Source: a virus. Taken from it: a DNA stretch of 19,093 bases. Below the pieces are notes generated by a model. The model was not told where the DNA came from, ran no database searches, and saw only the letters and a program-made list of their open reading frames with translations. This document shows, in pieces, positions 10,284-19,066 of this stretch (positions within the stretch are counted from its first letter, which is position 1; every line of letters starts with the position of its first letter). Both the position numbers and the translations under genes were made by a program. The DNA lies in UHGV virus genome UHGV-0806601; one strand, written 5' to 3'.

Positions 10284-10953
10284 ATGCAAGAGATCACTCT
10301 CTCCGAACGTACACTTCAGTTGCTGGCCAACTTTGAGACCATCAACCCATCTATCGTTCTGACACCGGGCAAGATGCTGCGCAGTATTAATGATTCTTCT
10401 ACTGTGATCGCCGTGGCGCAGATCGAAGAAGACTTCCCGTTTGAGTTCCCGATTCTGGACCTGACCAAACTTCTGGCCATCCAGCGCCTACCTTCCTTCA
10501 AAGGTGCCAAAGCCGAATTCCATCAGGACTACATCCTGTTGAAAGGCGAAAGTTCTCAGCTGCAATTCTGGCGTTCTGCTAAAGAACTCACGGTTGTCCC
10601 GGCTGATACTATTTGAACTGCCGTCTGTCGACTTTGAAGCGATCATCACTCCAGAGAAGATGAAAGAACTGACCCGCGCCTGCTCTACCCTAGGACATAA
10701 GACTGTGCGTCTGGTTGCTCAGGGTGGCAAAACACGCCTGGTTGCAACCACCACTACCCTGGACAACTCCAACAACTACACTGTTGAGCTGGGCGAAACC
10801 GCGCTGCCGGACTTCGTAATGCCACTGGATGTTGCCAACCTGAAAATGATCGAAGGCAACTACACTCTGCGTGCATGTGCTGATCTACAAATGGTGAACT
10901 TCCAATCATCCGACGCGACGATCAATTACTTCGTCGGCGCACAGATTGAGTAA
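10284..10953 (+). CDS. 45: sliding clamp (gp45 homolog), reading frame interrupted by a one-base frameshift near 10611-10616
   Basis: Two adjacent ORFs (10284-10616 and 10594-10953) together align collinearly with remembered T4 gp45 (FWRSAKELTVVPADTI / ELPSVDFEAIIT vs T4 FWPAADPSTVVAPNKPIPFPVASAVTEI). The second has no ATG (the track uses TTG). The shift maps to the T-run ACTATTTGAACTG. Confidence 0.7.
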
Positions 10954-12480: not shown

Positions 12481-12945
12481 ATGGCGCGTAATACGCTAGA
12501 CATATTGAATATTTCAGCAGTCAACGATGAGGCCAGCATCGTTGATTGTATGGTTGAAGTTCAATTGAACCAAGATCGGCCAGGTATATTCCTGGGGATC
12601 AAGGAAACACTGAGTCGAATTGGGGTAAACACGCGCCAAGAGCCGAATACTCTGTATCAGACTTGCCATATTCTTCATAAGTGTGGTAAGTATTATATCG
12701 TCCACTTTAAGCATCTATTTATGCTGGACGGGCATTACAACGGATTTAACCGCGAAGATGTCCTGAGGATGAACCGAATCATCAAGCTGCTGGAGCAGTG
12801 GAACATGGTGAAGGTCATTCATCCTGAGCAGGTCACCGAAGCAGCCGATATGTCTCGCATTAAAGTGGTTAAACACGATCAGGTTCCTGAATGGAAGCTG
12901 GTTCCAAAATACATCATCCGGCCTACGAAGGCAAAAAGCGAATAA
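12481..12945 (+). CDS. regA: RegA translational repressor homolog
   Basis: KETLSRIGVNT...LYQTCHILHKCGKYYIVHFK and EWKLVPKYII match remembered T4 RegA (KETLTRMGIAN...LYQSCHILQKKGLYYIVHFK; EWKLVPKYTI). An alternative start at 12550 would match T4 length better. Confidence 0.75.
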   Translation: MARNTLDILNISAVNDEASIVDCMVEVQLNQDRPGIFLGIKETLSRIGVNTRQEPNTLYQTCHILHKCGKYYIVHFKHLFMLDGHYNGFNREDVLRMNRIIKLLEQWNMVKVIHPEQVTEAADMSRIKVVKHDQVPEWKLVPKYIIRPTKAKSE

Positions 12946-12961
12946 CTGGAGTCGCTATATT

Positions 12962-13834
12962 ATGACAACTACATTTTCTAAGAACGTGAATCTGAATCTG
13001 GCTTTCGGTAATGCAAAGGGCGACGTCACATCGCCTGACTTTGGTAAGATCCGCAATCAGGCGAAACTGGTGCTGGAAGAGACCCGCGAACTGCTGGAAG
13101 CGGCGTTCTTTGACCATGATGTGAAGGTGGAATTCACTGCAACTCCACGAGTCCTGAAAGAACCCGTTGTTGTCGACATCAAAGACATTATGCGCCAGAT
13201 CATGGATGCCCAGGGCGACATCACCACTGTCAACGACGGTTTGGCTCATATTGCTGGTTTCGACGGTGACGAATGCTTACAGCGCGTGTATGCCTCTAAC
13301 ATGAGCAAGTTCATCCGTAATGAAGACGAAGTTGTGCCTGCACTGGATTACTACTACAACAAAGGCTTCCCACGCGAAAGTCTGCGCATCGAAGGGGAAT
13401 TCCCTCAGGCGTGCATCAAAGTGGTGAACACCATCACCGTCGACGGCAAAGAGTACCCGGCTGGCAAGTTCCTGAAGAACATGGCAACCTTCAAAGAGCC
13501 TGACTTCTCTGATATGTTGACCACCGAGCCTAAGCGCCAGATCACCGAAATCATTCTGACGGGTACGGCCATTCCAGGCCAGCTCGGTTCTAACGAACAC
13601 GCTGGTGTTGCCTTCGCTCCTTTCGATTTTATTGACGAGATCATGGGATACACCAAGATGGGCTTCCAGGCGTTCTCTGGCGAAACAGTCGAGAGCTACA
13701 TTCCCGTGTTTGTTTTCAATGAAGACAACTTCCCAACTCTACCGTTGATCTGGGGTGAATGGAAAGCCAACGTCCGTATCTATGTGGCCAGCCCAGTGCA
13801 ATCATCTATCACCCAACTGACCCGTATCGATTAA
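12962..13834 (+). CDS. hypothetical protein (290 aa) with a possible MazG/HisE-like NTP pyrophosphohydrolase N-terminal domain
   Basis: An EExxExxE helix (LVLEETRELLEAA) followed by an Asp-rich helix (DAQGDITTVNDGLAHIAGF) is reminiscent of all-alpha NTP pyrophosphatases. The C-terminal 150 aa is unassigned. GGAG ribosome-binding site. Confidence 0.45.
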   Translation: MTTTFSKNVNLNLAFGNAKGDVTSPDFGKIRNQAKLVLEETRELLEAAFFDHDVKVEFTATPRVLKEPVVVDIKDIMRQIMDAQGDITTVNDGLAHIAGFDGDECLQRVYASNMSKFIRNEDEVVPALDYYYNKGFPRESLRIEGEFPQACIKVVNTITVDGKEYPAGKFLKNMATFKEPDFSDMLTTEPKRQITEIILTGTAIPGQLGSNEHAGVAFAPFDFIDEIMGYTKMGFQAFSGETVESYIPVFVFNEDNFPTLPLIWGEWKANVRIYVASPVQSSITQLTRID

Positions 13835-13857
13835 GATATACAGTTATTCACTAAACA

Positions 13858-13886
13858 ACAGAGGCTATAATGGCCTCTGTTTTCGT
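13858..13886 (+). terminator. rho-independent terminator
   Basis: Stem ACAGAGGC / GCCTCTGT with a 7-nt loop, followed by TTTTCG. Confidence 0.5.
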
Positions 13887-13902
13887 ATTCTAAGAGGATA
13901 CC

Positions 13903-15126
13903 ATGAAAGATAAAGCCCTAGACGTCCCGTACTGCGGTGTCCGTGAAGAAAAGATAAAGTCGGCCAAACCGGTTCTCAGTCCGACCCATACCCGCCTGTC
14001 TTACGAATGGATGAGCGAGCGCTATAAGATCCACGTCAAGAAGGATGTCCAGCGCCTTCCTGCTCCTTGGACTGATAATCCCATATTACGGCAGGTCAAG
14101 TTCTGTAATGTCCGGAGAGAGCACGACAGGCAGTCTCTCAACCTGATCAACAACATCGTCAACAACGATGCTCTGGGTATGGCCGACAAGATGTTCAACT
14201 GCGTGTTGTTCCGCATGTTCAACCTCTGGGATCCAATCCAGGCTATTGGCGGCGCGATGACGATCAAAGAATTCGCCAAGATCAACCTCGATACAACCCG
14301 CGAACGACTTCAGAAGTTCGAGGCCGACGGTGGTAAGGTATTCACCAATGCCTTCAACACGGGCGGCCTGAAGCAATGCCTGGCTTTCCCTGAGCTGGTT
14401 GTCAACCACAAAGAGCAGCGCTTCGGTGGGATGATGGTGAAAGTGTATCGCGTTGGCCAGGGTATTGTGGACGAGATGGACTACAAGGTCGCCAAGAAGC
14501 TGGTCGAAGAGAATCCTGGTGAATATACCATCGAGGGATGGGAACCGTACATGCCAATGCGTGTCATCCGCTCCCTGAAGGCATTCGTCAACAAGTATCC
14601 AAATTATTTCCATGACCTGCTGCGCCTTGGTACTCCTTTGGAAGTATACCAGCGCATGTACGACGACATCGAAGGGCTTGGTCCATTCTTGGCCTATCAG
14701 ATATGGGTTGACTTCACGTACATGCCGGGTTATCCGTTTAGTGAGAACCACTTCACGGTTGCTGGACCAGGCTGTCGCGCAGGTATTGATCTGCTGTTCC
14801 TGAACAAAGACGGTATGACTCACGAAGAATGCATCTTCTGGCTACGGGATAATCAGGACGCAGTGTACTCCCAATATGGGTATGTTCGCGAGCAATTCTG
14901 GTCGGCCGAAGAGCCTGTAGATCAGTGCATGAACGTTATGCAGCTGGAGAACATGTTCTGTGAACTGAGCAAGTACACCCGCTGTGTTGAGGCTGTACAG
15001 CAAGGTAAAAAACCGCGCGGGAAGGTCAGCTATGACGGCGGTGGGGAATACAAAAAGCGCTGTGATGAAGTCGTGCTCAAACGCGGTTCCGTCAATTTGC
15101 TGGACCGTTTGAAGAAACCTGAATAA
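13903..15126 (+). CDS. hypothetical protein (407 aa) with a helix-hairpin-helix-like motif
   Basis: YDDIEGLGPFLAYQIW fits the HhH signature h-x-x-h-x-G-h-G-x-x-x-A. Strong AGAGGA ribosome-binding site. No T4 homolog recognised. Confidence 0.5.
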   Translation: MKDKALDVPYCGVREEKIKSAKPVLSPTHTRLSYEWMSERYKIHVKKDVQRLPAPWTDNPILRQVKFCNVRREHDRQSLNLINNIVNNDALGMADKMFNCVLFRMFNLWDPIQAIGGAMTIKEFAKINLDTTRERLQKFEADGGKVFTNAFNTGGLKQCLAFPELVVNHKEQRFGGMMVKVYRVGQGIVDEMDYKVAKKLVEENPGEYTIEGWEPYMPMRVIRSLKAFVNKYPNYFHDLLRLGTPLEVYQRMYDDIEGLGPFLAYQIWVDFTYMPGYPFSENHFTVAGPGCRAGIDLLFLNKDGMTHEECIFWLRDNQDAVYSQYGYVREQFWSAEEPVDQCMNVMQLENMFCELSKYTRCVEAVQQGKKPRGKVSYDGGGEYKKRCDEVVLKRGSVNLLDRLKKPE

Positions 15127-15241
15127 AGATTCCCTTTACTTCGTTCTTCAATAACTCTTTTCAACGTATTATTGACCTCACTTAAACGAAGCGCCCTGGC
15201 AAACGGGGCGCACATTTGAACTGAAACAGGAAGATTACATC

Positions 15242-17260
15242 ATGTCAGATTTTAAGCCCTTCGCAGTAGCTGTCAACAATAACGTGCTGGCCATGTCAGC
15301 AACTGGTCTGTTCATGACCAACATCGATAAAGATGCTCTGTGGGATCTGTATCTGTCTTCTTTCCCTGCTGGCACTAACCCGCTCTACCGTGAGCGTACC
15401 GAGCACGACTGCACCTGCTGTAAACAATTCATCCGTAACATCGGCGGTGTGGTCACCATCGACGCCGACCTGAACGTGATCTCTATCTGGGATAACATTC
15501 AGCTGGGTAACGAATACGACGTTGTCGCTGCGGCGCTGTCAGCGTATGTTAAGCAACACGCAATCGTCGACGTGTACTTCAACGACACCAAGAAAATTGG
15601 TGTTGAGTCGAATCACGAAATGAAAGACGGTATTGTCCGCACCTACAACCACTTCCACACCGACCTGCTGGGCAGCTATGTTCTGCGGGCAGATGCCATC
15701 GCTTCTAAGAAGGGTGAAATCCGCCAGGCGATTGAAGTGTTTGAGCGCGGCCTGCGTGAACTGTCTCTGGAATCGGCTGAAATCGTTCTGGAATTGATCG
15801 ACCAGAATTCTCTGTATCGCGGTGAAGAGCACAAAGCGGCAGTGCAGGCGTTCGTGGTGAACAAGACCATGTACGAACAAACTGCAGAAGAGAAACGCGC
15901 TCTGTGGGCTTGGCGCACTGGCTACCGTGCAAACGGTCATATCCCTCACGGCATTCGTAATACCGTGATTGGCTCTCTGCTGGTAGACCTCAATGAAGGC
16001 CGGGATTTGGAAACCGCCGTGAAGTCCTTTGAAGCCAAAGTCGCCCCGACGAACTACAAGCGCCCAACCGCGCTGGTCACGAAGTCTATGATTGAAAACG
16101 CGCAGAAAGAAGTCGAAGCGCTGGGTCTGACTGATTCACTGGGTCGCCGTTATGCCGTGTATGACGATCTGACCATCAACAACGTTCTGTTTGCCGACCT
16201 GGCAGCACAGAAGAAGATGGACCCGTTTGCTCAGCTGGCGTCTGAAGTGAAGACTCCGACCAAGTCCCTGGACAAGGTTGAAGAGATCACGATCGACGAT
16301 TTCCTGACCAACGTGTTGCCAAAGGCGCATTCCCTGGAAGTGCTGGTCGAAAACTCTCACATTGGCAACCTGATGTCCCTGATCGCTCCGGCTACCGCAG
16401 GCGCTCCTAACCTGTTCAAGTGGAACAACGGCTTCAGCTGGTCGTACAATGGCGAAGTGGCCGACTCTATCAAAGAGCGCGTGAAGACCGCAGGCGGCAA
16501 CGTCGACAGCTTCCTCCGTGTGTCGCTGGCGTGGCATAACAACGACGACCTGGATCTGAGCATGAACGATCCTCTTCACAACCACGTGTATTATCACAAC
16601 CGTCGTTCGGCAACTGGCGCAACCCTGGATATCGACATGAACGGTATGGACGGCATTGATCCCAACCGCCGCCCGGTGGAGAACATCTTCTTCAGCGATG
16701 AACGCAAGCTACGTGATGGTCTGTACGAGTTCTATGTCACTAACTTCAGCCAGCGTGAAACCTGTGATATGGGCTTCGAAATCGAAGTTGAATACAAAGG
16801 CCAGACCAAGCGTTTTTCGCATCCTGGTCTGAAGCACAAAGATCGCACTCTGGCTGTTGTGATTGATGTCCGCGCTGGTCAGGTGGTCAACATCAGTTCT
16901 ACCCTGAAGGACGACGCTCGCTCTCAGGAAATCTGGGGCATCAAGACCTCGGTCTTCCAGAAGGTACAGCTGGTTCTGAACTCACCAAACCATTGGGACG
17001 GTGAGCAGACTGGCAACAAGCACGTGTTCTTCATCCTGGAAGGTTGTGCTAACCCTGTCGGCACCCGTGGCTTCTATAACGAATATCTGAAGCCGGAACT
17101 TGATAAACACCGCAAGGTTTTTGAAATGTTAGGTGGTAAGATTAAAGTACAGCCAAGCACTGAGCAGCTGTCCGGTCTGGGCTTCTCTACCACCCAACGC
17201 AACCACGTGTTCGTGAAGGTGAGCGGTTCGTTCAACCGCACTGTGAAAGTTGTGTTCTAA
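15242..17260 (+). CDS. large hypothetical protein (672 aa)
   Basis: A long ORF with an AGGAAG ribosome-binding site and protein-like composition. Contains an H-D-C-T-C-C cluster near residue 55. No Walker A and no polymerase motifs seen. Confidence 0.6.
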   Translation: MSDFKPFAVAVNNNVLAMSATGLFMTNIDKDALWDLYLSSFPAGTNPLYRERTEHDCTCCKQFIRNIGGVVTIDADLNVISIWDNIQLGNEYDVVAAALSAYVKQHAIVDVYFNDTKKIGVESNHEMKDGIVRTYNHFHTDLLGSYVLRADAIASKKGEIRQAIEVFERGLRELSLESAEIVLELIDQNSLYRGEEHKAAVQAFVVNKTMYEQTAEEKRALWAWRTGYRANGHIPHGIRNTVIGSLLVDLNEGRDLETAVKSFEAKVAPTNYKRPTALVTKSMIENAQKEVEALGLTDSLGRRYAVYDDLTINNVLFADLAAQKKMDPFAQLASEVKTPTKSLDKVEEITIDDFLTNVLPKAHSLEVLVENSHIGNLMSLIAPATAGAPNLFKWNNGFSWSYNGEVADSIKERVKTAGGNVDSFLRVSLAWHNNDDLDLSMNDPLHNHVYYHNRRSATGATLDIDMNGMDGIDPNRRPVENIFFSDERKLRDGLYEFYVTNFSQRETCDMGFEIEVEYKGQTKRFSHPGLKHKDRTLAVVIDVRAGQVVNISSTLKDDARSQEIWGIKTSVFQKVQLVLNSPNHWDGEQTGNKHVFFILEGCANPVGTRGFYNEYLKPELDKHRKVFEMLGGKIKVQPSTEQLSGLGFSTTQRNHVFVKVSGSFNRTVKVVF

Positions 17261-17304
17261 ACCTGATTTGAAATTGTAACCCATTCATCATTGAGGATAG
17301 TAAA

Positions 17305-17677
17305 ATGTTTGATAAAGCAACCCGTCTGAAACTGCGCTTCGAGTCTAACAAAGGTCTGCTGTCTGTTGAGCAGGTTTGGGACCTGAGCCTGACCGCCCTG
17401 AACGAAATGGCGAAAGGTCTGAGCCGTCAGGTGAAAAGCAGCAGAAACCGATGAAGAAGATTTCATTGGCACCAAAAGCAACGTTGACTCCGAACTGCAG
17501 CTGCGCTTCGACGTTGTCAAGCACATCATCGGCGTTAAGCTGAAAGAACGTGACGACAGCAGAGACGCGGCAGAGCGTAAGGCGAACAACCAGATTATCC
17601 TGGAGCTGATCCAGCGTAAGAAACAGCAAGAGCTGGAAAGCAAATCTGTTGAAGAACTGGAAGCACTCCTGAAATAA
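17305..17677 (+). CDS. hypothetical protein (about 123 aa if joined), interrupted by a one-base frameshift at the A-run 17434-17437
   Basis: Frame 1 runs ATG 17305 to a stop at 17452-17454 (49 codons). The next frame is open from 17435 to the stop at 17675-17677 with no start codon of its own and protein-like sequence (..FIGTKSNVDSELQLRFDVVKHIIGVKLKERDD..). GAGGA ribosome-binding site. Translated by hand. Confidence 0.45.
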
Positions 17678-17701
17678 TCTGTCTGACCTCAGCCTGAGCA
17701 A

Positions 17702-17727
17702 CCCCGCCATGTGCGGGGTTTTCTTTT
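17702..17727 (+). terminator. rho-independent terminator
   Basis: CCCCGC (17702-17707), loop, GCGGGG (17713-17718), then TTTTCTTTT; nearly the same module as at 1211-1238. Confidence 0.6.
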
Positions 17728-17738
17728 GGACAAAGAAT

Positions 17739-18149
17739 ATGAAACCTGTTATATGTGATTACTGTGGCCTCCCAGCCGAATTCGTCGGTGGTGATGTTCT
17801 CTACCCTCATCGCCCTGACCTCCGCAATCTGAAGTTCTGGGTGTGCACTCCATGTGATGCCCGTGTCGGTTGCCATGCCCATGGCGACGGCAGACAACCT
17901 CTGGGAAGGATGGCGAATGCCGCTCTCCGTGCTGCTAAGCAGGAAGCCCATAGATCGTTTGACCCATTGTGGAAAAGCGGAGAGAGGAGCAGGAGCGACG
18001 CTTACAGTTGGCTGGCGCATAAGCTGGGGATAAAGAAGCGTGAGTGTCATATTGGCTTGTTCGATATCGACATGTGCCGTAAAGTAGTTGTTGTCTGTCA
18101 ACAATACGAGGCACATATCAATGTCAAAGGAAATACAAGAAGCGTTTGA
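17739..18149 (+). CDS. zinc-ribbon protein of unknown function
   Basis: CxxC (C6, C9) and CxxC (C36, C39) pairs in the N-terminal 40 aa. The track start at 17709 lies inside the terminator loop, so the ATG at 17739 is preferred. Confidence 0.5.
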   Translation: MKPVICDYCGLPAEFVGGDVLYPHRPDLRNLKFWVCTPCDARVGCHAHGDGRQPLGRMANAALRAAKQEAHRSFDPLWKSGERSRSDAYSWLAHKLGIKKRECHIGLFDIDMCRKVVVVCQQYEAHINVKGNTRSV

Positions 18150-18366
18150 GAATCTAACTCAGGCGCTCACCAACTGCAACCGTCTCAACTATTGCAACGA
18201 CCCATTGCAAAAGCTGAAGTCCCTGGTAGAATCAGAACTGGCTAAACTGGCCGAATACAACGCCATCCAAGAAGACGTGGCGTTCATGTCGGACACGGTC
18301 GTAGACACCCTTCCGCGCGAAGTGTTACAATGTCTTGGACCGCATCGCAAAGGTGGGTTTCCGTGA
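18121..18366 (+). CDS. hypothetical protein (81 aa)
   Basis: ATG at 18121 with GAGG upstream; overlaps the previous gene's 3' end by 29 nt. Confidence 0.35.
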   Translation: MSKEIQEAFENLTQALTNCNRLNYCNDPLQKLKSLVESELAKLAEYNAIQEDVAFMSDTVVDTLPREVLQCLGPHRKGGFP

Positions 18367-18434
18367 ACCACAAGACGCCAAACCCACCCCCGAAATTCTT
18401 ACATCCATCGTTGACTCGTTTAAGTGAGACCGCC

Positions 18435-18668
18435 ATGTCTAAAGAGATTATCTTTACCGGGGCGGCGCTTGACACCATGTATGCCCTGTACAATCGTGGT
18501 CCACTGAGCATTGGCGATATCCCGTCTAAGTCAGGTCTGGACTTCCTGTTGCGACATAAGCTGGTTGTGGCTGTGGTAGTCAGGGGTGAAACGCAATACG
18601 CCGGGTCGATGGCCATGGCTTCCCACTACAAACGTCAGACATGGAAGGGTGCTTCCTCCAAATCCTGA
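18435..18668 (+). CDS. hypothetical protein (77 aa)
   Basis: ATG at 18435; the upstream part of the track ORF has no ribosome-binding site and is Pro-rich and non-protein-like. Confidence 0.35.
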   Translation: MSKEIIFTGAALDTMYALYNRGPLSIGDIPSKSGLDFLLRHKLVVAVVVRGETQYAGSMAMASHYKRQTWKGASSKS

Positions 18669-18775: not shown

Positions 18776-19066
18776 ATGTTTCGTTTGAAATTGAACGACC
18801 AAGATGTGTTCTACAAACACTTCACCTTCCCAGGTGGTGAGGAACATATCAAGATCCAAAAGTCTGGTATCCCTATCGGCCACGTTCAGAACGTGGTGAT
18901 TGATGCTCACATCAAATCATCAGCCGACTTCATTGAGCTGGCGCTTCTGGTTAATGCCGTTCGTGGTCTGGGTAACGTGGACCGCCTGACGACATTCCAT
19001 GCATATATCCCGTACTTTCCATCTGCGCCAGCAGTTCTCGGTTACAGTACCAGCCATATTCGATGA
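18776..19066 (+). CDS. ORF resembling the N-terminal domain of ribose-phosphate pyrophosphokinase (PRPP synthetase-like), apparently truncated
   Basis: F.GGE..I.I...(30 aa)..ELALLVNAVRG....RLTTF.AYIPYF parallels the remembered Prs N-domain pattern F.DGE..V.I....ELL.M.DALRRASA.RITAVIPYFGYARQDR. The ORF stops after 96 codons, just before the window end. GAGG ribosome-binding site. Confidence 0.35.
   Translation: MFRLKLNDQDVFYKHFTFPGGEEHIKIQKSGIPIGHVQNVVIDAHIKSSADFIELALLVNAVRGLGNVDRLTTFHAYIPYFPSAPAVLGYSTSHIR

What the first reader, a model, noticed from the sequence alone, without database searches (positions are those of the whole stretch)
15242..17260. 672-aa orphan protein with an H-D-C-T-C-C cluster
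This is the largest gene in the window, well expressed by context (strong ribosome-binding site, same operon direction), with a possible metal-binding cluster near the N-terminus and no recognisable motif of polymerases, ATPases or structural proteins. It is the third member of the post-regA cluster.
Basis: seen in the sequence. Interest (0 to 1): 0.5.

Follow-up and report, generated by a model that had tools for sequence, protein, structure and literature searches.

The report
Widespread DUF8224 protein, not an orphan
The 672-residue gene is real, but it belongs to a very widespread, uncharacterised family (Pfam DUF8224) that almost always sits next to one small partner gene in large phages and some bacteria, and its core fold matches no solved structure.

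Summary
The ORF at 15242-17260 (+), its 672 aa, its AGGAAG ribosome-binding site and the H55-D-C-T-C-C60 motif are all present. "Orphan" is wrong. The protein matches PHROG 1735 end to end. Near-identical proteins carry Pfam PF26675 (DUF8224). A profile search finds 9,267 clusters (at 50% identity), and 557 phage records encode a relative. The window is an Ag3-like Ackermannviridae phage.

The two upstream "cluster" genes are a MazG-like pyrophosphatase and a 5-hmdU DNA kinase, both tied to thymidine hypermodification. That linkage is confined to Ackermannviridae, and published reconstitution of the modification did not include this protein.

The real conserved neighbour is the ~123-aa gene directly downstream (PHROG 2018). 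It is adjacent in 86 of 87 phage loci and 77 of 80 bacterial loci. In this window a single extra A, probably an assembly error, breaks it.

Best reading: a non-virion, two-subunit, metal-dependent enzyme-like factor of nucleic-acid or nucleotide metabolism. Its activity is unknown.

The parts
15228..15233 (+). Shine-Dalgarno-like AGGAAG, 8 nt upstream of the ATG
   Evidence: Read directly from the sequence.
15242..17260 (+). DUF8224 / PHROG 1735 gene, 672 aa plus stop
   Evidence: ORF list and translation. phrog_1735 match over 1-672 with E = 0. Homologues at 96-99% identity carry PF26675. 98.7% identical to Escherichia phage A221.
15404..15421 (+). H55-D56-C57-T58-C59-C60, a candidate metal or redox centre. 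The CxxC sits at the start of predicted helix 58-67.
   Evidence: Translation. C57 and C60 are invariant in 34/34 sequences and at least 95%/90% conserved in 167 long and 42 short forms. Secondary structure from the AF2 model.
15650..15652 (+). Codon of H137, a universally conserved His and possible third ligand
   Evidence: Invariant in A1 and across long and short forms. Its proximity to the CxxC was not tested because no coordinates were available.
16055..16150 (+). Segment carrying universally conserved Y272, R274 (NYKRP loop) and R302, R303 (RRYA strand). With R239, E614 and E628 these form the candidate catalytic or ligand-binding set.
   Evidence: Conservation over 209 sequences. Alignment A1.
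16433..16921 (+). TerD-like beta-sandwich insert (residues ~398-560) with invariant acidic motifs DDLD (435-438), LDxDxN (462-467) and VEN (479-481)
16934..17257 (+). C-terminal alpha/beta part of the core (residues 565-672), conserved in short forms, with E614 and E628
   Evidence: BLASTP to Xp12 QNN97164, residues 565-668. Conservation. Secondary structure.
17305..17677 (+). Partner gene (PHROG 2018, ~123 aa). Here it is split into two frames by one extra A in the run at 17434-17437.
   Evidence: Alignment to ChubbyThor gp165. HMM hits in two frames at 17272-17451 and 17435-17674. phrog_2018 E 1e-39 to 1e-48 for orthologues. The extra A is absent from 12 relatives.
17700..17730 (+). Terminator-like hairpin (8-bp stem, 6 GC pairs) plus T-run, closing the two-gene unit
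   Evidence: Consensus scan and sequence. This is a pattern match only.

Best explanation
SHOWN. The gene encodes a full-length member of the DUF8224 / PHROG 1735 family. It forms a self-contained two-gene module with the ~123-aa gene immediately downstream (PHROG 2018). This module is kept at 40% identity or more in large phages of several bacterial phyla, and also in bacterial chromosomes (Micromonosporaceae and others). No other neighbour is conserved.

The protein has a core of three parts: an N-terminal alpha/beta domain carrying CxxC and His137, a helical domain, and a split alpha/beta domain. A TerD-like beta-sandwich is inserted into that last domain. The core matches no solved structure.

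INFERRED. It is a soluble, non-virion factor made together with the replication and nucleotide-metabolism genes, and it works as a complex with the small partner. The core is probably an enzyme, or at least a specific binder, for a universal phosphorylated substrate such as nucleic acid or a nucleotide. It would use a Cys57/Cys60/His137 metal (Zn) or redox centre and an Arg239/Tyr272/Arg274/Arg302/Arg303/Glu614/Glu628 site. The TerD-like insert, with six invariant acidic or amide residues, would bind divalent cations (Ca2+) or a nucleotide-derived ligand and regulate or target the core. Short forms work without it. The chemical reaction is not known.
For: Family membership.

Partner:
- Homologous ~123-131-aa gene directly downstream in ChubbyThor, CBA120, two metagenomic phages and Bacillus phage BCP78.
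- Adjacent in 86 of 87 phage loci spanning 34 groups at 60% identity: 84 downstream and 2 upstream.
- Adjacent in 77 of 80 genome loci, in 24 of 24 groups, at a median of 15 nt downstream.
- 5,107 partner homologues, none with a Pfam domain.
- A terminator-like hairpin follows the pair.

No other conserved neighbour.

Enzyme-like conservation: phage proteins from Proteobacteria, Bacillus, Microcystis and Cellulophaga hosts are 30-56% identical over the full length. Universal invariants are C57, C60, H137, R239, Y272, R274, R302, R303, E614 and E628.

Context: DNA/RNA-metabolism genes lie around it in many lineages. Examples are clamp loader, regA, MazG and the kinase here; DNA polymerase and primase in Seu621; RNR, PNK and ligase in Xp12; and RtcB, Thg1, topoisomerase, SSB and DnaB elsewhere. 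There is no TATAAATA late promoter in the window.

Non-virion: 3 spectra in Sajous1 virions against 311 for an abundant protein.

TerD domains have been proposed to bind specialised nucleotide derivatives (PMC7159879).
Confidence: 0.35

Rival explanations
1. It is a conflict-system component, either counter-defence in phages or defence in bacteria. On this view a mobile two-gene cassette senses or destroys a nucleotide-derived immune signal, or modifies a host target.
For: It is a stand-alone two-gene cassette found both in virulent phages and at non-syntenic chromosomal sites. No flanking gene family is shared by more than 3 of 38 Micromonosporaceae loci. The bacterial distribution leans towards actinomycetes, myxobacteria and cyanobacteria-like lineages, the lineages in which Kaur et al. 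describe TerD-containing conflict systems (PMC7159879). An Apyc1 gene is a neighbour in one lineage.
Against: There are no PADLOC matches for either protein. Micromonosporaceae flanks are ordinary housekeeping and regulatory genes with hardly any defence hits. Identity of 40% or more across phages of unrelated hosts is unusual for host-specific anti-defence proteins.
Confidence: 0.2
2. It is mainly a non-catalytic Ca2+- or ligand-binding scaffold, a TerD-like stress protein, with the conserved core serving only as an assembly platform.
Against: Short forms lack the whole insert yet keep the core invariants. This makes the core, not the beta-sandwich, the ancestral functional unit. There is no sequence-level TerD relationship.
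Confidence: 0.1
3. It is an accessory enzyme of the Ackermannviridae thymidine hypermodification (5-NeOmdU) pathway, as its position after the MazG-like gene and the 5-hmdU DNA kinase suggests.
For: The 407-aa upstream gene is a 5-hmdU DNA kinase (PF18723, E 6e-82). The 290-aa gene is MazG-like (phrog_2144). The order regA, MazG, kinase, DUF8224 is kept in Agtrevirus and Kuttervirus. A conserved Cys near Glu/Asp recalls the Cys/Glu pair of aGPT-Pplase2 (PMC8989533).
Against: Lysates expressing ViI gp67, gp160, gp226, gp243 and gp247 suffice to make 5-NeOmdU (PMC5889632). This protein is not in the pathway tables. The kinase is a neighbour in only 2 of 34 phage groups. The family occurs in many phages and bacteria with no kinase nearby. 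No aGPT-Pplase Pfam hit occurs in any of 34 members.
Confidence: 0.07
4. It is a virion-packaged or structural protein.
For: Peptides of the Sajous1 orthologue gp179 (3 spectra) and of its partner gp180 (1 spectrum) were seen in CsCl-purified particles.
Against: Those counts are trace level, against 311 and 196 for abundant virion proteins. Replication proteins such as the clamp loader and SSB appear at the same level. The gene sits in the replication module. Chromosomal bacterial homologues lack phage neighbours.
Confidence: 0.04
5. It is a DNA-directed RNA polymerase, as annotated in GenBank for ChubbyThor gp166 and Seu621 gp16.
For: Only the depositors' annotations, plus Asp-rich motifs (DDLD, LDxDxN) that superficially resemble DxDxD.
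Confidence: 0.02

Closest known systems
Pfam PF26675 (DUF8224) / PHROG 1735, an uncharacterised family of phages and bacteria
   Same: Full-length profile match. Same length class (~660-690 aa), the same invariant motifs and the same downstream partner as thousands of members.
   Different: Nothing distinguishes this copy. It is 96-99% identical to proteins of Ag3-like phages. The family itself has no assigned function.
Short-form DUF8224 proteins (~550 aa), e.g. Xanthomonas phage Xp12 QNN97164, Serratia jumbo phage 2050HW_00182 and Burkholderia/Ralstonia prophage proteins
   Same: Homologous over residues 24-400 and 565-668. They keep CxxC, His137, Y272, R274, R302, R303, E614 and E628.
   Different: They lack the TerD-like insert (~398-560) and have no detectable PHROG 2018 partner. 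In a Burkholderia prophage the next gene is a DUF3268 zinc-finger protein.
TerD (tellurite-resistance Ca2+-binding beta-sandwich; PDB 2kxt, 2qz7)
   Different: There is no Pfam TerD hit and no hhalign match to the 2kxt sequence. The GDN(R/L)TGEGDGDDE Ca2+ motif, recalled from my own knowledge of TerD, is not present as such. Here the domain is an insert in a larger protein rather than a stand-alone protein of a ter operon.
5-hmdU DNA kinase / aGPT-Pplase thymidine hypermodification system of phage ViI
   Same: Physical neighbour of the kinase orthologue in Ackermannviridae.
   Different: It is not part of the reconstituted pathway. It has no domain of that system. The linkage is absent outside Ackermannviridae.

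Membership tests
DUF8224 (PF26675) / PHROG 1735 | End-to-end profile match | tested here: met
   phrog_1735 covers residues 1-672 of 673 profile positions, E = 0, 1018 bits. PF26675 is precomputed for homologues at 96-99% identity. That model is missing from the local Pfam copy, so it was not scored directly.
DUF8224 (PF26675) / PHROG 1735 | Family-wide invariant residues (CxxC, H137, Y272/R274, R302/R303, E614, E628) | tested here: met
   All are present in the window protein.
DUF8224 + PHROG 2018 two-gene module | A ~123-131-aa partner gene adjacent on the same strand | tested here: met
   The partner lies at 17305-17677, 44 nt after the stop codon. It is interrupted by one extra A that 12 relatives lack, which is probably an assembly error.
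TerD family (PF02342) | TerD-type beta-sandwich fold | tested here: met
TerD family (PF02342) | Sequence-profile membership | tested here: not met
   No TerD Pfam hit for the query or for any of 34 members at E <= 1. hhalign of A1 against the 2kxt sequence gave probability 0.2%.
TerD family (PF02342) | Ca2+ binding | not testable with these tools
   Invariant D436, D438, D463, D465, E480 and N481 are suggestive only.
Thymidine hypermodification pathway (5-HMUDK, aGPT-Pplase, PLP decarboxylase) | Carries a domain of the pathway, or is required for the reconstituted reaction | tested here: not met
   No such Pfam domain. Five other ViI proteins suffice in lysates (PMC5889632; PMC8989533).
Thymidine hypermodification pathway (5-HMUDK, aGPT-Pplase, PLP decarboxylase) | Conserved linkage to the 5-hmdU DNA kinase across lineages | tested here: not met
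   The kinase is a neighbour in 2 of 34 phage groups and in none of the bacterial loci examined.
DNA-directed RNA polymerase (GenBank label on orthologues) | Polymerase catalytic fold or motifs | tested here: not met
Virion structural protein | Abundant in purified particles and encoded in the morphogenesis module | tested here: not met
   3 spectra against up to 311 in Sajous1. The gene lies between the clamp-loader/regA genes and the NAD-salvage genes.
Zinc-binding or thioredoxin-like CxxC module | A complete ligand set or a matching fold | tested here: inconclusive

The most novel reading that the evidence does not exclude
DUF8224 and its small partner form a previously unrecognised, autonomous two-subunit enzyme with a new fold. 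It would act on nucleic acids or nucleotide-derived molecules, for example in a new repair, modification or signal-degrading reaction. It would be shared by large virulent phages of at least four bacterial phyla and by differentiating bacteria, with a TerD-like metal- or ligand-sensing insert in the long form.
Probability: 0.35. Interest if true: 0.7.

Novelty: new member of a known kind. Interest (0 to 1): 0.4.

Why it matters
This particular gene is an ordinary copy of a catalogued family; nearly identical proteins are in GenBank. It therefore adds nothing new as a sequence.

The family is among the most conserved and widespread functionally blank phage proteins. A profile search finds 9,267 clusters at 50% identity, and phages of unrelated hosts share about 40% identity or more.

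The analysis here turns a 'hypothetical protein' into a well-defined experimental target with four features:
- An almost invariable small partner gene.
- A split architecture, in which a core with no solved structural relative carries an optional TerD-like insert.
- A short list of universally invariant residues.
- Stand-alone chromosomal copies in bacteria such as Micromonospora and Actinoplanes.

It also corrects two misleading labels: 'putative DNA-directed RNA polymerase' in GenBank, and the apparent membership of the thymidine hypermodification cluster.

Tried and rejected
- Sequence searches. Pfam, NCBIfam and PADLOC scans of the protein, its partner and the short forms gave nothing beyond noise. 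PDB sequence searches with the single sequence and with the profile also gave nothing.
- TerD at sequence level. hhalign of the family profile against the TerD sequence found no match.
- RNA-polymerase annotation: rejected (see the rival explanations).
- Hypermodification role: rejected as the main explanation, on the literature and on the lack of conserved linkage.
- Gene-neighbourhood enrichment across 34 phage groups and 24 bacterial groups. Only the partner is conserved. Pfam content of the immediate neighbours is heterogeneous. Micromonosporaceae flanks are housekeeping genes with almost no defence hits.
- DUF3268 zinc-finger gene as a third component. It lies near DUF8224 in only 2 of 34 long-form groups plus two short-form contexts.
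- Literature. Searches for PF26675, DUF8224 and the PHROG numbers found no papers. Two phage essentiality screens do not cover a phage with this gene.
- Frameshift in the partner as a biological feature. Rejected, because the essential sliding-clamp gene carries a similar unique homopolymer insertion.

Full report
**Observation**

The window holds an ATG-initiated ORF at 15242..17260 (+) of 672 codons. It is the longest ORF in the window; the next is 533 aa. AGGAAG lies 8 nt upstream of the ATG. Residues 55-60 read H-D-C-T-C-C. So the coordinates, the size, the ribosome-binding site and the motif are all correct.

**Source of the window**

Megablast of 12900-17300 finds 283 phage records. The best is Escherichia phage LHE287 at 95.8% identity, and all hits are Ackermannviridae such as Agtrevirus/Ag3-like and Kuttervirus. 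In Shigella phage ChubbyThor the gene order is:
- sliding clamp, clamp loader and regA;
- a 'nucleoside triphosphate' pyrophosphohydrolase;
- a hypothetical protein;
- gp166, the orthologue of this ORF;
- gp165;
- a zinc-finger protein;
- ribose-phosphate pyrophosphokinase and nicotinamide phosphoribosyltransferase;
- a vWA protein.

CBA120 and Sajous1 show the same order.

**Not an orphan**

- The protein matches PHROG 1735 from residue 1 to 672 with E = 0.
- The word-indexed search returns more than 5,400 homologues, nearly all 660-690 aa and carrying the precomputed Pfam PF26675. This family is named DUF8224 in the gene tables of related contigs.
- The model is absent from the local Pfam copy, which explains the empty Pfam scan.
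- An exhaustive profile search finds 9,267 representative clusters with E <= 1e-3 and 2,298 with E <= 1e-30.
- tblastn finds relatives in 557 phage records. These include Ackermannviridae, Klebsiella Mydovirus, Caulobacter phiCbK-like phages, Bacillus Tsarbombavirus, Vibrio phages, Xanthomonas RiverRider, Microcystis MaMV-DC and Cellulophaga phi4:1. Identity is 30-56% over the full length.

**The 'post-regA cluster'**

The 407-aa gene is a 5-hmdU DNA kinase (PF18723, E 6e-82). It is the orthologue class of ViI gp67. The 290-aa gene is MazG-like (phrog_2144). Both belong to thymidine hypermodification and nucleotide metabolism.

Lysates with ViI gp67, gp160, gp226, gp243 and gp247 are enough to make 5-NeOmdU (PMC5889632). 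The later pathway paper lists no DUF8224 protein (PMC8989533). Outside Ackermannviridae the kinase is not a neighbour. The cluster is therefore a lineage-specific juxtaposition and not a functional unit.

**The real partner**

The ~123-aa gene directly downstream (ChubbyThor gp165, CBA120 orf151) has 38-85% identical counterparts directly after DUF8224 in two unrelated metagenomic phages. It has a counterpart in Bacillus phage BCP78 as well. All match PHROG 2018.

I fetched 80 viral loci and 80 loci from species-representative genomes, called ORFs and clustered them.
- In 87 phage loci (34 groups at 60% identity) the partner is adjacent on the same strand in 86. It is downstream in 84 and upstream in 2. 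It is missing only beside a short-form protein.
- In bacterial genomes it lies a median of 15 nt downstream in 77 of 80 loci, and in 24 of 24 groups.
- No other gene family is a neighbour in more than 4 phage groups.
- Pfam content of the two nearest larger genes on each side is heterogeneous: topoisomerase, RtcB, Thg1, SSB, DnaB, a PD-(D/E)XK nuclease, Apyc1 and others, each seen once.
- The partner family has 5,107 detectable members and no Pfam domain.
- In the window a terminator-like hairpin at 17700-17720 follows the pair.

**The partner in this window**

The partner (17305-17677) is broken by one extra A in the run at 17434-17437. A similar unique T insertion at ~10612 splits the essential sliding-clamp gene. 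Both insertions are absent from all 12 relatives compared, including one 97.5% identical over the compared 81-nt stretch. I read both as homopolymer assembly errors.

**Bacterial copies**

Full-length homologues at 39-49% identity, each with the partner, occur in 38 Micromonosporaceae genomes: Actinoplanes, Micromonospora, Salinispora, Dactylosporangium and Catellatospora. They also occur in Myxococcota, Bradyrhizobium, Sericytochromatia and Clostridia.

In Micromonosporaceae no flanking family is shared by more than 3 of 38 loci. The flanks are ordinary genes such as MFS transporters, short-chain dehydrogenases, sigma factors, G6PD and Clp protease. No integrase or phage family appears among the top Pfam hits, and there are almost no defence-system hits. 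Many of the metagenome-assembled genome (MAG) hits could still be phage contigs.

**Architecture**

The AF2 model of the window protein has pLDDT 82.9. It shows:
- an N-terminal alpha/beta domain (1-145), with the CxxC at the start of helix 58-67;
- a helical domain (150-295);
- an alpha/beta region (300-405);
- a beta-rich region (425-552);
- a C-terminal alpha/beta region (565-672).

About 550-aa relatives (Xp12, jumbo phage 2050HW, Burkholderia and Ralstonia prophages) align to residues 24-400 and 565-668. They lack ~398-560. The TerD-like sandwich is therefore an insert in a conserved core.

**Conserved residues**

I aligned 167 long and 42 short forms and looked for residues kept in at least 95% of long and 90% of short forms. 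They are C57, C60, H137, R239, Y272, R274, R302, R303, E614 and E628, plus several Trp, Gly and Pro residues.
- E51 and D56 are conserved only in long forms.
- H55 alternates with Tyr.
- C59 is about 90% conserved.
- The insert carries invariant D436, D438, D463, D465, E480 and N481.

It is a real, strongly conserved feature whose chemistry (Zn, redox or structural) remains untested.

**Virion question**

The Sajous1 orthologue gp179 gave 3 spectra and gp180 gave 1 spectrum in CsCl-purified particles. Abundant virion proteins gave 311 and 196, and replication proteins appeared at a similar trace level (PMC10892097). This shows the protein is expressed, but not that it has a structural role. 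The label 'putative DNA-directed RNA polymerase' used there and in GenBank has no support in any search here.

**Interpretation**

High conservation across phages of unrelated hosts points to a universal substrate rather than a host-specific target. So do the set of invariant Cys, His, Arg, Tyr and Glu residues, the recurrent location among DNA/RNA-metabolism genes, and the chromosomal copies.

I therefore favour a soluble two-subunit, metal-dependent enzyme-like factor of nucleic-acid or nucleotide metabolism, with the TerD-like insert as a cation- or ligand-binding regulatory module. TerD domains have been proposed to recognise nucleotide derivatives (PMC7159879).

The reaction itself is unknown, and I give the mechanistic part a confidence of only 0.35. 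A conflict-system role is the main rival at 0.2. The family assignment and the two-gene module are well supported.

**Verdict**

This is a real gene and an ordinary member of a catalogued but functionally blank family. The finding is useful as a pointer to a good experimental target rather than as a discovery in this window.

Noticed in passing
window 17434-17437 and ~10610-10612: Two isolated one-base homopolymer insertions (AAA to AAAA, and TT to TTT) break the DUF8224 partner gene and the gp45 sliding-clamp gene (ORFs 10284..10616 and 10594..10953). Both are absent from 12 related phages. They are probably assembly or sequencing errors, which means frame breaks elsewhere in this window should not be trusted.
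   Followed up: yes
window 12962-13834 and 13903-15126: The 290-aa gene is MazG-like (phrog_2144). The 407-aa gene is a 5-hmdU DNA kinase (PF18723, E 6e-82), the ViI gp67 class. This phage therefore very likely hypermodifies thymidine, with 5-NeOmdU or a relative.
   Followed up: partly
window 17739-18149 (ORF listed from 17709): A DUF3268 zinc-finger protein follows the DUF8224 pair. A DUF3268 gene also lies directly after a short-form DUF8224 gene in a Burkholderia prophage (L170), 5.6 kb downstream in a Ralstonia-type phage (L171), and 2.5-3 kb downstream in one other phage group (L041, L042, L062). The association recurs but is not universal.
   Followed up: partly
genome loci L125-L168 (Micromonosporaceae), L096/L098/L115/L117/L120 (Myxococcota), L090/L101 (Bradyrhizobium): The DUF8224 and partner pair occurs in bacterial chromosomes at non-syntenic positions among ordinary genes, without integrase or phage genes nearby in the Micromonosporaceae sample. 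Whether these copies are domesticated, mobile or ancestral is open.
   Followed up: partly
window 18776-19066 and 18108-18653: The start of a ribose-phosphate pyrophosphokinase gene lies here. In ChubbyThor it is paired with nicotinamide phosphoribosyltransferase, suggesting an NAD-salvage pair. The window ORF stops at 19066, although the orthologue continues. Positions 18108-18653 have no ChubbyThor counterpart and appear to be a variable region.
   Followed up: no
window 15191-15211 and 15276-15249 (- strand): A GC-rich hairpin (GCGCCC...GGGCGC, 9-nt loop) lies between the kinase gene and the DUF8224 start, without a clear T-run. An 11-of-12 sigma-70 consensus match lies on the minus strand inside the 5' end of the ORF. 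Both are pattern matches only.
   Followed up: no
L008 (Xanthomonas phage Xp12) 4839-8369; L002 4873-13397: In some phages DUF8224 lies near end-healing and sealing genes: polynucleotide kinase/phosphatase and DNA ligase in Xp12; a LigD_N-like phosphoesterase and an RNA ligase in a 210-kb metagenomic phage. RtcB and Thg1 are neighbours in other lineages. This hints at nucleic-acid repair, but each case occurs only once.
   Followed up: partly
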